DNA of 64,000 bases from a virus. Positions 1 through 1,911 of the stretch are shown here, in pieces. Numbering within the stretch: position 1 is the first letter of the stretch; each line of letters begins with the position of its first letter. The DNA lies in the IMG/VR virus record IMGVR_UViG_3300018080_000099, positions 64,001 to 128,000 of that record; one strand, written 5' to 3'. The notes beneath the pieces were generated by a model. The model saw nothing but the letters and a program-made list of their open reading frames with translations. It ran no database searches and was not told the DNA's origin. The translations under genes were made by a program, and so were the position numbers.

Positions 1-41
1 CCAGACTTTTTATCCACTTCCGAATGACTTATCCGAACTCC

Positions 42-527
42 TTATCCGAAGTTTACTTCCTGACGAATAGTAAGTCCGAATCCCTGAAACTGACTGATGC
101 TTTCTATCTTGAAGTGCAAGTGCGAATCCTCATTAAGTTTCTGAGGCTTCCGCCGAGGTAGGAACTTCCTTTCCAGCTGGTGGACTTCCCGGACAGTAAG
201 TCTACTTCCATCTTCCCAAAGGTACTGTTGGCGTTCACTGGACACCTGAAAGACTTCTAGGTAGTGCCGGCCCTTGTGCTGAATGACTGCCGAGTTCCCC
301 AGCCGACTTCCCCACTTCTTGACAAGTGGAGGATGACCGGCCCTGTGCAAGCGTCCAGTATGCCGGGTCAAGGCGTATACTTTCCTGTGCCTGAACTGCT
401 CAGTGAACTCAGAGTAATGCCTGAGCTTCGGTGTGACATTTGTAAACGTGTCCACGGTAACTTCACCGTGGGCGTCAAGACCACGTAGCGCTGAAAACAT
501 ATTCAATCCTTTCTGAATGTGTACCAA
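42..527 (-). CDS. hypothetical protein; paralog of the 780..1436 product (shared ..Y.E..S..S..WEDGS.LT..E.. block)
   Basis: 161-aa ORF; the internal motif QYLWEDGSRLTVREV matches EYRWEDGSLLTKEEL in the divergently transcribed neighbour. Confidence 0.4.
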   Translation of the reverse strand: MVHIQKGLNMFSALRGLDAHGEVTVDTFTNVTPKLRHYSEFTEQFRHRKVYALTRHTGRLHRAGHPPLVKKWGSRLGNSAVIQHKGRHYLEVFQVSSERQQYLWEDGSRLTVREVHQLERKFLPRRKPQKLNEDSHLHFKIESISQFQGFGLTIRQEVNFG

Positions 528-779
528 GAATATAATTCATTTGACACTTATTGTCAATGTCTTTTTTGTCAATCTACTTAACCGCTTAAACCAGCGACCA
601 AGCTCCCCGTTGGTTCCCCGACCGACATCCGCCGCTCAGATGTTTCAGTACATATAATATACTACAATTCAGTACCATTGTCAACAATTATTTTCATTTT
701 CTTTGGCATGATGTTTGCTAATATACATTCATATATAATGCCATTCTATTTAAGCGGTTAACTAAAAAAATGAATTATT

Positions 780-1436
780 TTGCATTTGGGTATTGACAAT
801 GGAGCTGAAATGTATTATATTATTACCATGATGATTGAAAGACAACCAACAACCATTCACAGAAAGGCGGACTCTATGTCCATCACAGAACAGATTGTGA
901 ACCTTCTGAAGCGTTTCCCGACACAATGCTCTTTCGCAAACATTGTGACAAAGACCAACCCGTGCCGGACATCACAGAAATCAAAGAATCTTCTTTGTCA
1001 ACTCTTCCCGAACCATACCGATATTGTCAAGATGGGCTCTCGCAATGTGTCAATCGGTAACACATGGACAACCGCAATCAACAATCGAATTGAGAAATCA
1101 GGCGCGATTGACGGAATAGAATATGTTCCCGAACAGAGAACCTGGGCTGAAAGAATCACAAACGGTTTGATTGCCCACAAAGAAAACGGACAGATGTATG
1201 TTGAATATTACTATCTGTCAGCCAACGAATCATCATACGAATATCGGTGGGAAGATGGCTCCCTCTTGACAAAAGAAGAATTGGAGATTGCCAAAAGAGA
1301 ATTGTTCAAACCCATATCGGCACCCAAGAAACAGATGGAACATGGGCTTGACAAAGAAGATACAATCAAAATCAACATTGTCAAGATAGAGAATGTGGTA
1401 TCTCTCCATGCATTCGGTGAACAGATAGAAGCATAA
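780..1436 (+). CDS. hypothetical protein, WEDGS-motif paralog; the true start may lie downstream of 780
   Basis: 218-aa ORF followed by a rho-independent terminator; paralogous block shared with 42..527. Confidence 0.45.
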   Translation: MHLGIDNGAEMYYIITMMIERQPTTIHRKADSMSITEQIVNLLKRFPTQCSFANIVTKTNPCRTSQKSKNLLCQLFPNHTDIVKMGSRNVSIGNTWTTAINNRIEKSGAIDGIEYVPEQRTWAERITNGLIAHKENGQMYVEYYYLSANESSYEYRWEDGSLLTKEELEIAKRELFKPISAPKKQMEHGLDKEDTIKINIVKIENVVSLHAFGEQIEA

Positions 1437-1456
1437 CACACAACCAAGATTGACAT

Positions 1457-1488
1457 GGGGGAACTGAAAACGGTTCCCCCATTTTCAT
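1457..1488 (+). terminator. rho-independent terminator (GGGGGAAC / GTTCCCCC stem plus ATTTTCAT)
   Basis: perfect 8-bp GC-rich inverted repeat followed by a T-run, immediately after the stop codon at 1436. Confidence 0.6.
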
Positions 1489-1891
1489 ACCCACCATTCT
1501 TATTTGTCAAGCTTATTATTTGTAAAGAGCCTTCTCAGATGTGGGTGTGGTATTTGTCAACCGTGGGCTGTGGGAGAGTCTTGACATATGAGAATGATAA
1601 TATTGGTTCTGTGGCATGGGAGATTCCTGACAAATGAGAAAAGGCTAAAAATCTAGGTCACAGGACTTTCACCAAAACCCTGTGGAAAAGGGGTCCCAGA
1701 CGGGGGCGCTGACTACGTCAGTCATTTTTCATGAAAACTTCGACTATTCTCCTAACAGCATGTTTCACGTGGAACATTTACTAACAGTCTTTCCAGAGCG
1801 GGGGTGGGGGGCAAAATTCTGAAAGCGCTCAATGGGACTCCAAGCCATGCTATATAATGCCGAAAAATTTTTCTGGAAACTTCGAGCCTAG

Positions 1892-1911
1892 TTATCCACA
1901 AGTTATCCACA
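1892..1911 (+). promoter_or_regulatory. two tandem perfect DnaA boxes (TTATCCACA, 2 nt apart)
   Basis: TTATCCACA at 1892-1900 and 1903-1911 inside a ~600-bp ORF-free AT-rich region upstream of a consensus promoter. Confidence 0.5.

What the first reader, a model, noticed from the sequence alone, without database searches (positions are those of the whole stretch)
1..1911. Tandem perfect DnaA boxes (TTATCCACA x2) in a 600-bp ORF-free AT-rich region, plus DnaA-box-like repeats at the window start
Two perfect DnaA boxes 2 nt apart (1892-1911) lie between two terminator-like hairpins and the first conserved promoter. Near-consensus copies TTATCCACT and TTATCCGAA (twice) occur at 10-50. This could mark a replication origin, a host-DnaA-titrating site, or DnaA-dependent promoter control.
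Basis: seen in the sequence. Interest (0 to 1): 0.55.

Follow-up and report, generated by a model that had tools for sequence, protein, structure and literature searches.

The report
Host DnaA docking pair in phage
Two perfect binding sites for the bacterial replication initiator DnaA sit side by side in a non-coding gap of a 264-kb phage. They are almost certainly a real DnaA docking site, but they lack the marks of a replication origin.

Summary
The core observation holds. TTATCCACA occurs at 1892-1900 and 1903-1911, as AGTTATCCACA x2 with an 11-bp period. These are the only perfect boxes in 74 kb and are far beyond chance.

Other parts of the finding fail:
- The gap 1437-2030 is ORF-free but not AT-rich (56.7% vs 55.9%).
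- Only one of the two hairpins is a strong terminator.
- The "boxes" at 10-50 are a terminator T-tail plus a 13-nt repeat over a stop codon.

The window is the early or accessory region of an orphan huge phage (47 tRNAs, no relatives found).

The same 20-mer occurs in at least 120 unrelated viral contigs, against 0 for a permuted control. Viral arrays run in one orientation, unlike bacterial clusters.

Origin tests came out negative or inconclusive:
- no unwinding element and no DnaA-trios;
- no extra boxes;
- no local GC-skew inflection;
- no replication genes in the ORFs scanned across the window and 10 kb upstream.

The pair lies 62 bp upstream of the first promoter of a second promoter class, at the border between two early transcription modules.

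Best reading: a cooperative host-DnaA docking site that acts on that promoter or border (about 0.4). Rivals are an origin accessory (0.25), a T5-like injection-stop analogue (0.1), a DnaA decoy (0.1) and no function (0.15).

It is a new member of a known kind.

The parts
1892..1900 (+). DnaA box 1, perfect consensus TTATCCACA
1903..1911 (+). DnaA box 2, perfect consensus TTATCCACA. Same orientation as box 1, 2-nt spacer, 11-bp register.
1915..1923 (+). Candidate weak DnaA site TTTTCTAAG. It matches 7 of 9 positions of the low-affinity consensus and lies 3 nt after box 2. Inferred only.
   Evidence: The phased arrangement is seen at 1.2% of random anchors, and the test was chosen post hoc.
1926..1934 (+). 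Candidate weak DnaA site CTATCCAGC. It matches 8 of 9 low-affinity positions and 6 of 9 of the strong consensus, 2 nt after the previous site. Inferred only.
1681..1689 (-). Isolated relaxed-consensus box TTTTCCACA, opposite orientation, about 200 bp upstream. Probably chance.
   Evidence: relaxed boxes are at background frequency
1437..2030 (.). 594-bp non-coding gap with no ORF under any stop-codon reassignment and average AT content. It is the border between two promoter classes and a GC-content step.
1456..1484 (+). Strong intrinsic terminator ending the upstream gene (876-1436)
   Evidence: -22 kcal/mol, z -4.1
1708..1722 (+). Weak 6-bp hairpin followed by a T-run; marginal terminator
   Evidence: z -0.9
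1571..1640 (.). Two copies of a 24-nt direct repeat (88% identical, 46-nt period), with a related 17-nt inverted repeat at 1495-1511 / 1580-1596. Only modestly above background.
   Evidence: 6% of control segments score as high
1973..2001 (+). Consensus sigma-70-type promoter TTGACA-17-TATATT, the first of class 2 (CCTGTACC spacer). It drives the orphan genes 2031-2534 and 2531-2956 (HTH). The boxes sit at about -116 to -97 from the inferred transcription start.

Best explanation
The pair AGTTATCCACA-AGTTATCCACA is a selected, high-affinity, cooperative binding site for the host initiator DnaA, carried by a virulent-looking 264-kb phage.

Proposed mechanism (inferred). Two DnaA molecules bind head-to-tail on the same DNA face, 11 bp apart. 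ATP-DnaA may then extend over two phased weak sites at 1915-1923 and 1926-1934, towards the strong promoter at 1973-2001.

The resulting complex would sit exactly at the border between two blocks:
- a promoter-dense immediate-early block, where class-1 promoters occur roughly once per small gene;
- the next block, made of class-2 promoters and long operons.

There it would tune or insulate transcription of the second block according to the amount of active DnaA in the host.

It is not an oriC-like origin.

Shown: the sequence, its non-random nature, its placement, and the absence of origin hallmarks.
Inferred: that DnaA actually binds, and what binding does.
For: - The pair is a perfect tandem consensus and the only one in 74 kb.
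- The exact 20-mer occurs in at least 120 unrelated IMG/VR contigs against 0 for a composition-matched permuted control. The 22-mer occurs in at least 120 bacterial contigs across phyla. The common reader of this motif is therefore the universal host protein DnaA.
- 113 GenBank phage records carry arrays resembling three tandem AGTTATCCACA units, and most of the 60 listed hits lie in unannotated DNA.
- Viral arrays run in one orientation: 99 of 111 have no opposite-strand box within 150 bp, against 45 of 142 bacterial contexts. This resembles operator or titration clusters more than oriC.
- The site lies 62 bp upstream of the -35 hexamer of a consensus promoter. It falls exactly where promoter class 1 gives way to class 2 and where GC content steps down.
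- Four same-orientation sites with spacers of 2, 3 and 2 bp match the arrangement reported as necessary for cooperative DnaA binding at the E. coli mioC promoter. That comparison rests on my own recollection of Hansen et al. 2007 J Mol Biol 367:942; only the reference is listed in PMC5835720.
- DnaA boxes carried on multicopy DNA are known to titrate DnaA and to repress mioC (PMC5835720).
- The origin hallmarks tested were absent. No replication genes were found among the ORFs scanned.
Against: - A position of -116 to -97 is further upstream than the classical DnaA operators I recall (dnaA P2, mioC, nrd).
- The promoter is already a near-perfect consensus and should not need activation.
- Other class-2 promoters have no comparable boxes.
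- The two weak phased sites are a post hoc observation with about 1% chance expectation.
- The element cannot be tested for conservation. All sampled copies are 100% identical, and the flanking genes are orphans.
- The host is unknown.
Confidence: 0.4

Rival explanations
1. Replication origin or origin accessory. The pair recruits host DnaA, and through it the DnaB helicase, to start or assist phage DNA replication, as tandem DnaA boxes do at the edge of P1 oriR and iteron-plasmid origins.
For: - The gap is 594 bp of non-coding DNA with a 2-copy 24-nt direct repeat, an inverted repeat and short A/T palindromes.
- It is followed by two small DNA-binding-looking orphan genes, one with an HTH_11 hit.
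- In other phages, a subset of the genes flanking the same 20-mer are primases, primase-polymerases and RusA-type resolvases.
- Tandem same-orientation boxes are the plasmid and P1 grammar (own knowledge).
Against: - No AT-rich unwinding element: 56.7% AT, stability at the 94th percentile.
- At most 2 DnaA-trios, where 3 or more are required (definition from PMC8287927).
- Only two strong boxes and no opposite-orientation partner within 150 bp.
- No iteron array of 3 or more copies.
- The repeats are only marginally above background.
- GC skew stays positive on both sides apart from a dip at one minus-strand gene. The sign flip at 34 kb tracks gene orientation.
- No polymerase, helicase, primase or initiator was found: precomputed Pfam hits for called genes from -10 kb to +12.5 kb and Pfam scans of 33 ORFs chosen across the window, about three quarters of those of 150 aa or more. 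ORFs shorter than 150 aa beyond 12.5 kb were not scanned.
- In T5, the studied virulent phage I found with paired DnaA boxes, the origins map elsewhere (10.1101/866236).
Confidence: 0.25
2. T5-like boundary element. The gap is a functional analogue of the injection-stop region of T5-like phages. DnaA, which is partly membrane-bound, would dock on the pair at the end of the first-entering host-takeover block. This would pause or organise DNA entry, or mark a terminal-repeat boundary.
For: - T5-like phages carry DnaA boxes in pairs separated by 3 bp, in a large untranslated, repeat-containing region at the end of the pre-early DNA (10.1101/866236; restated in PMC13250531).
- Here a pair with a 2-bp spacer lies in a 594-bp untranslated gap. 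That gap ends a block of at least 9 kb of small genes with one strong promoter each.
- T7-like Berlinvirus A7, phiEap-1 and Kp7 carry arrays of the same 11-bp unit within 180 bp of the record end.
Against: - There is one pair, not four, and it is not embedded in inverted repeats with a fixed spacer.
- The repeat content of the gap is only modestly above background.
- The window's first 6 kb shows no nucleotide similarity to any GenBank phage, and one window protein gave no tblastn hit.
- No large A1-like gene was seen in the 10 kb upstream.
- Genome termini are unknown.
- The DnaA role is itself only a hypothesis in T5.
Confidence: 0.1
3. DnaA decoy. As the phage genome multiplies, the high-affinity pair soaks up host DnaA and delays new rounds of host chromosome initiation, acting like a phage-borne titration locus.
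For: - Plasmid-borne DnaA boxes titrate DnaA in vivo.
- E. coli has only about 307 consensus boxes (PMC5835720), so 100-200 phage copies would add a comparable load (inference).
- Closely spaced same-orientation boxes are the efficient titrating arrangement (own knowledge, Hansen 2007).
Against: - Only one pair was found in the 74 kb examined; a dedicated decoy would be expected to carry more sites.
- The precise placement at a module border next to a promoter is not explained.
- There is no IHF-type site as in datA.
Confidence: 0.1
4. No current function. The pair is a slipped 11-nt duplication of a chance or inherited DnaA box.
For: - The pair is an exact 22-nt tandem duplication.
- No relatives exist to show conservation.
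Against: - A chance perfect box that was then duplicated in the functional 11-bp register is very unlikely.
- The same 20-mer recurs in at least 120 unrelated viral contigs against 0 for a control.
Confidence: 0.15

Closest known systems
Paired DnaA boxes in the untranslated injection-stop (iss) region of T5-like phages (Davison, bioRxiv 10.1101/866236)
   Same: Both are virulent-type phages. Both have consensus DnaA boxes in same-orientation pairs with a 2-3 bp spacer, in a large untranslated region at the end of a promoter-dense pre-early or early gene block. Neither is at a known origin.
   Different: T5-like phages have about 8 boxes in 4 pairs, embedded in inverted repeats with a 52-bp spacer inside the terminal repeat. 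Here there is one pair, not in an inverted repeat, the termini are unknown, and there is no sequence relationship.
DnaA-box cluster of the E. coli mioC / dnaA promoters (DnaA as repressor, and titration sites)
   Same: Same-orientation boxes with 2-3 bp spacing next to a sigma-70 promoter. The predicted behaviour is cooperative binding (Hansen 2007 from own knowledge).
   Different: The boxes here are 62 bp upstream of the -35 hexamer rather than overlapping or abutting the promoter. The element is on a phage, and regulation is untested.
Bacterial oriC basal unwinding system (tandem DnaA boxes + DnaA-trios + AT-rich region; PMC8287927)
   Same: A tandem pair of boxes no more than 3 bp apart, with the upstream box a perfect consensus.
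   Different: No run of 3 or more DnaA-trios within 16 bp, no AT-rich unwinding region, no opposite-orientation boxes, and no skew inflection.
Tandem DnaA boxes at the edges of P1 oriR and iteron-plasmid origins (F, RK2, pSC101; own knowledge)
   Same: Same-orientation tandem consensus boxes on a mobile replicon that relies on host DnaA.
   Different: There is no iteron array, no recognisable Rep gene and no AT-rich stretch. The genome is a 264-kb tRNA-rich phage that probably has its own replication machinery elsewhere.
11-bp-unit DnaA-box arrays at the ends of T7-like genomes (Berlinvirus A7, phiEap-1, Kp7) and in gaps of Lactococcus 949-like phages
   Same: The same AGTTATCCACA unit at an 11-bp period, all in one orientation and in unannotated non-coding DNA.
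   Different: Those arrays have 4-10 units and, in the T7-like records, lie within 180 bp of the record end. As far as I found, their function is also unstudied.

Membership tests
oriC-type origin / basal unwinding system | Tandem DnaA boxes no more than 3 bp apart, at least one near consensus | tested here: met
   Two perfect boxes with a 2-bp spacer
oriC-type origin / basal unwinding system | At least 3 DnaA-trios (3'-NAN-5') starting within 16 bp of the box, on the correct side | tested here: not met
   The maximum run is 2 from either box. 28% of random positions pass this loose test, so failing it is informative (rule from PMC8287927). The strand and direction were derived from my own reading of E. 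coli oriC.
oriC-type origin / basal unwinding system | Adjacent AT-rich DNA unwinding element | tested here: not met
   The gap is 56.7% AT against 55.9% for the window. The 60 nt downstream are only +7 points. The least stable 60-mer in the gap is at the 94th percentile.
oriC-type origin / basal unwinding system | Cluster of several boxes in both orientations | tested here: not met
   Only the pair, plus one relaxed box 200 bp away. Relaxed boxes are at background.
oriC-type origin / basal unwinding system | Cumulative GC-skew minimum at the site | tested here: inconclusive
   There is no sign change at the site within -10 kb to +64 kb other than a dip at one minus-strand gene. About 190 kb of the genome could not be retrieved.
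Iteron-type origin (P1 oriR, F, RK2) | Array of 3 or more iterons next to the DnaA boxes | tested here: not met
   Only a 2-copy 24-nt repeat with a 46-nt period, and TRF finds no array
Iteron-type origin (P1 oriR, F, RK2) | Adjacent Rep initiator gene | tested here: inconclusive
   The neighbouring genes are orphans with no Pfam, PHROG or PDB match apart from an HTH_11 hit. The AF2 model was unusable, with pLDDT 38.7.
T5-like injection-stop (iss) region | DnaA boxes in pairs, 2-3 bp apart, in a large untranslated region of early DNA | tested here: met
   definition
T5-like injection-stop (iss) region | Four pairs placed in inverted repeats with a fixed 52-bp spacer; a dense repeat and palindrome structure | tested here: not met
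   One pair, outside the only notable inverted repeat. The repeat score is exceeded by 6% (direct) and 26% (inverted) of control segments.
T5-like injection-stop (iss) region | Location inside a long direct terminal repeat; two-step DNA entry requiring A1/A2 | not testable with these tools
   Reads and termini are unavailable. There is no nucleotide similarity between the window's first 6 kb and GenBank phages.
DnaA-regulated promoter (mioC / dnaA / nrd type) | Consensus box or boxes overlapping or directly next to the core promoter | tested here: inconclusive
   The boxes end 62 bp upstream of the -35 hexamer. Candidate weak sites narrow this to 38 bp.
DnaA-regulated promoter (mioC / dnaA / nrd type) | Promoter activity changes with DnaA level | not testable with these tools
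   Needs reporter assays in the unknown host
datA / DARS-type DnaA-cycling loci | Three to five boxes in a defined mixed orientation plus an IHF site | tested here: not met
   Two boxes only, and no IHF consensus within 20 kb

The most novel reading that the evidence does not exclude
One-orientation DnaA-box pairs or arrays may be a general and largely unrecognised device of virulent phages. They would mark the end of the first-entering host-takeover DNA, or the genome termini. Examples would be the T5 iss region, arrays at the ends of T7-like genomes, arrays next to HNH-cos regions, and this unrelated 264-kb phage. Host DnaA, partly membrane-bound, would be used as a physical anchor or checkpoint between two stages of infection, not as a replication initiator.
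Probability: 0.1. Interest if true: 0.7.

Novelty: new member of a known kind. Interest (0 to 1): 0.38.

Why it matters
If DnaA really docks here, a huge phage with no known relatives reads out or exploits the host's master replication initiator at the switch between two early gene programmes.

- It is very common in phage DNA (at least 120 IMG/VR contigs; related arrays in 113 GenBank phage records).
- It is almost never annotated.
- It is organised differently from bacterial oriC clusters, because it runs in one orientation.

The only discussed precedent I found (T5) remains unexplained. A defined two-box element next to a consensus promoter would be a simple system for testing what phages use DnaA for.

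Tried and rejected
COMPARATIVE GENOMICS
- Megablast of window 1-6000 and tblastn of one window protein against GenBank phages found nothing.
- The search for related loci with three window proteins in IMG/VR and one upstream protein in JGI metagenomes found nothing.
- All three homologue searches showed that the flanking genes are orphans and that NadR is at most 58% identical to anything else. A full HMMER search of the 167-aa protein found only itself.
- The only other copies (L121-L127) are 100% identical. Conservation of the boxes could therefore not be tested.

WHOLE-GENOME SKEW
- Look-ups are limited to window-encoded proteins plus or minus 10 kb, so only -10 kb to +64 kb could be read.

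FUNCTION OF THE DOWNSTREAM GENE
- Pfam, PHROGs and PDB searches gave nothing. Single-sequence AlphaFold gave pLDDT 38.7, which is unusable, so no fold search was run.

HOST IDENTIFICATION
- A 27-mer including the flanks has no match in 185,579 bacterial genomes. The bare 22-mer is spread across many phyla and is uninformative.
- The run accession is not mentioned in the paper library.

REJECTED IDEAS
- Relaxed boxes near the class-2 promoters at 15.3 kb and 22.1 kb as a regulon signal: they lie in gene ends and A-tracts.
- An ssDNA hairpin-type DnaA site (ABC primosome): the box region is unstructured.
- A hidden ORF under a reassigned stop codon.
- The crude DnaA-trio test does not separate viral, bacterial and random contexts (27-31% against 28%). 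It is therefore weak as positive evidence.
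Full report
WHAT IS THERE

TTATCCACA occurs exactly twice in the 64-kb window, at 1892-1900 and 1903-1911. Both copies are on the + strand and are separated by AG.

Together with the preceding AG they form a perfect two-copy tandem repeat of the 11-nt unit AGTTATCCACA at 1890-1911. This is the only perfect 11-nt tandem duplication in the window.

About 0.78 perfect boxes are expected per window. A second box at a fixed +11 offset therefore has an expectation near 5e-6 (my arithmetic).

Boxes with one mismatch (25 against 17.8 +/- 4.1 expected) and boxes fitting TTWTNCACA (10 against 7.6 +/- 2.9) are at background. None occurs in the 10 kb upstream of the window. So there is one isolated, very strong pair.

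WHAT IN THE FINDING DOES NOT HOLD

- The gap 1437-2030 is free of credible ORFs. This remains true when TAG, TGA or TAA is read as sense, a check prompted by the suppressor-type tRNA in the window.
- The gap is not AT-rich. It is 56.7% AT against 55.9% for the window, and its least stable 60-mer is only at the 94th percentile.
- The hairpin at 1456-1484 is a strong intrinsic terminator (-22 kcal/mol, z -4.1). The one at 1708-1722 is marginal.
- At the window start, TTATCCACT (10-18) is the T-tail and flank of a bidirectional terminator hairpin between convergent genes.
- The two TTATCCGAA copies (29-37 and 42-50) belong to a 13-nt, 2.5-copy tandem repeat that overlaps the stop codon of the minus-strand gene 42-500. 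They miss the consensus at two core positions. They are not DnaA boxes.

GENOMIC SETTING

The window comes from a phage genome of about 264 kb, assembled at 100% identity in a few metagenomes.

It carries 47 tRNA genes, including a CUA-anticodon tRNA. It also carries PnuC, a NadR-like enzyme, RtcB, radical-SAM enzymes, three DNA methylases, HNH nucleases, UDG, an Apyc1-like anti-Pycsar protein and a GluR0-like channel.

No polymerase, helicase, primase or initiator was found. The coverage was precomputed Pfam hits for called genes from -10 kb to +12.5 kb and Pfam scans of 33 ORFs chosen across the window, about three quarters of those of 150 aa or more. ORFs shorter than 150 aa beyond 12.5 kb were not scanned.

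The phage has no detectable relatives:
- no hit in GenBank phages for window 1-6000 or one window protein;
- no hit in IMG/VR or JGI contigs;
- the two genes downstream of the boxes are orphans;
- NadR is at most 58% identical to anything else.

A BORDER BETWEEN TWO TRANSCRIPTION MODULES

A promoter scan shows that the 10 kb upstream, up to position 821, is packed with near-identical consensus promoters. There is roughly one per small gene.
- Class 1: TTGACA ... TCAGCTnGAATG ... TATATT ATTGGTACATTC.
- Class 2: from 1973 onward the promoters are sparser and have a different spacer, TTGACA nn CCTGTACC ... TATATT ... GGTAC.

Each class has its own palindrome bracketing the -10 element.

The gap with the boxes is exactly the border between the two classes. 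It also coincides with a GC-content step, from about 0.50 to about 0.45. The boxes end 62 bp upstream of the -35 hexamer of the first class-2 promoter. That places them at roughly -116 to -97.

IS THE MOTIF MEANINGFUL BEYOND THIS GENOME?

None of these is related to the window.
- A permuted control with the same composition has 0 matches.
- The 22-mer is also in at least 120 bacterial contigs from many phyla.
- 113 GenBank phage records carry arrays resembling three tandem AGTTATCCACA units, and most of the 60 listed hits lie in unannotated DNA.
  - Arrays of the 11-bp unit lie within 180 bp of the record ends of T7-like Berlinvirus A7, phiEap-1 and Kp7.
  - One array lies in a 1.6-kb gap of Lactococcus 949-like phages.
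- Most viral occurrences are intergenic.
- Flanking genes are heterogeneous. A subset are primases and resolvases, and some are HNH nucleases or terminases.
- Orientation differs between viral and bacterial contexts. 99 of 111 viral contexts have no opposite-orientation box within 150 bp, against only 45 of 142 bacterial contexts. Phage arrays run in one orientation, unlike oriC.

The window's element is a typical minimal member of this viral class.

ORIGIN TESTS

I used the published definition of the basal unwinding system: tandem boxes, a spacer of no more than 16 bp, at least 3 DnaA-trios, then AT-rich DNA (PMC8287927).

- The tandem boxes are present, but at most two trios follow. 28% of random positions pass this loose test.
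- There is no unwinding element.
- There is no IHF consensus site nearby.
- There is no iteron array.
- The repeat content of the gap is only modestly above that of control segments.
- GC skew is weakly positive from -8 kb to 0 and dips only across the single minus-strand gene 42-500. It is more strongly positive beyond 2 kb. The sign change at 34 kb coincides with the switch in gene orientation.

About 190 kb of the genome is out of reach, so the origin reading is disfavoured but not excluded.

MOST LIKELY MECHANISM

I regard it as well supported (about 0.85) that this is a selected high-affinity site for host DnaA.

What the bound DnaA does is inferred. Two weak sites at 1915-1923 and 1926-1934 continue the register towards the promoter, giving spacers of 2, 3 and 2 bp. 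This arrangement occurs at 1.2% of random anchors and was found post hoc. It echoes the same-orientation, 2-3-bp-spaced cluster needed for cooperative binding and titration at E. coli mioC. That comparison rests on my own recollection of Hansen et al. 2007, whose reference is listed in PMC5835720.

I therefore favour a DnaA nucleoprotein complex that tunes or insulates the first class-2 promoter at the module border (confidence 0.4).

Rivals:
- Origin accessory (0.25).
- A functional analogue of the T5 injection-stop region (0.1). There, DnaA boxes occur in pairs 3 bp apart in the large untranslated region ending the pre-early DNA (10.1101/866236; PMC13250531).
- A DnaA decoy (0.1).
- A functionless duplication (0.15).

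VERDICT

This is a real and non-random DnaA-box pair, a new member of a known kind of element. DnaA-box pairs in phage or plasmid non-coding DNA are already known.

The origin interpretation is not supported by the available tests, and the extra "boxes" at the window start are spurious.

Interest is moderate for this locus. The wider pattern is the more interesting lead: abundant, one-orientation and unannotated DnaA-box arrays in phages, sometimes at genome ends.

Noticed in passing
whole window and 10 kb upstream (L124): GATC is completely absent: 0 in 73,959 nt against about 228 expected. ATCGAT, GAGCTC, GATATC and GCATGC are also absent. CCATGG, ACCGGT and CCCGGG occur once each, and GGCC is at 0.42 observed/expected. 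This is extreme restriction-site avoidance, although the window encodes three DNA methyltransferases (27721-28659, 28656-29447, 45762-46697).
   Followed up: partly
window 529-821, 1973-2001, 10583, 15336, 22122, 25400, 30711; L124 (upstream 10 kb): There are two classes of near-consensus sigma-70-type promoters. Each has its own palindrome bracketing the -10 element: class 1 GAATG...CATTC and class 2 CCTGTAC...GTACAGG. This suggests two phage repressors or operators and a temporal switch. Class 1 occurs about once per small gene upstream of 821, and class 2 drives long operons downstream of 1973.
   Followed up: partly
window 575-656 (- strand); L124 copies corresponding to window -693, -2241 and -3814 (- strand) and -5519 (+ strand): Five class-1 promoters are followed by no ribosome-binding site or ORF. 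Four of them (684, -693, -2241, -3814) were aligned and share a conserved stretch of about 70 nt (AATAACCTnAGGGGTGGGAACGGCGA...TTTAAGCGGTTAA). The fifth (-5519) was read by eye, because I gave the wrong coordinates for it in the alignment. This is a candidate family of small RNAs with no Rfam match.
   Followed up: partly
window 34202-34278 (+) and 47442-63912 (-): 47 tRNA genes were found, many of them long and possibly intron-containing. One has a CUA anticodon (amber-suppressor type) and sits at the point where gene orientation and GC skew flip. An RtcB RNA ligase lies at 30860-32209. All three stop codons are used by the early genes checked.
   Followed up: partly
window 18199-19212 (+): This ORF combines a periplasmic solute-binding domain with a potassium-channel pore (SBP_bac_3 + Ion_trans_2 + Lig_chan-Glu_bd). 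It is a GluR0-like ligand-gated ion channel encoded by a phage.
   Followed up: no
window 52500-53312 (-), 39431-39916 (-), 43894-45294 (-): An Apyc1-like anti-Pycsar nuclease homologue, an Hsp20 and a RimK-like ATP-grasp enzyme lie among the tRNA arrays.
   Followed up: no
window 19-50: A 13-nt tandem repeat of 2.5 copies (TTCGGATAAG on the minus strand) spans the stop codon and 3' flank of gene 42-500. Its purpose is unknown.
   Followed up: partly
L128 1-160 (Shigella phage A7, MK685668.1); L001-L120; L130-L209: Arrays of the 11-bp unit AGTTATCCACA are common in phage DNA and run in one orientation: 99 of 111 viral contexts, against 45 of 142 bacterial ones. In T7-like genomes they lie within 180 bp of the record end. 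A group of IMG/VR contigs has the pair directly after a gene end and before a G-run, and HNH endonucleases and terminases are among the families flanking the motif in the set.
   Followed up: partly
window about 0-2000: There is a step in base composition at the gap. GC is about 0.48-0.53 with weak GC skew upstream, and about 0.41-0.49 with stronger positive skew downstream.
   Followed up: no
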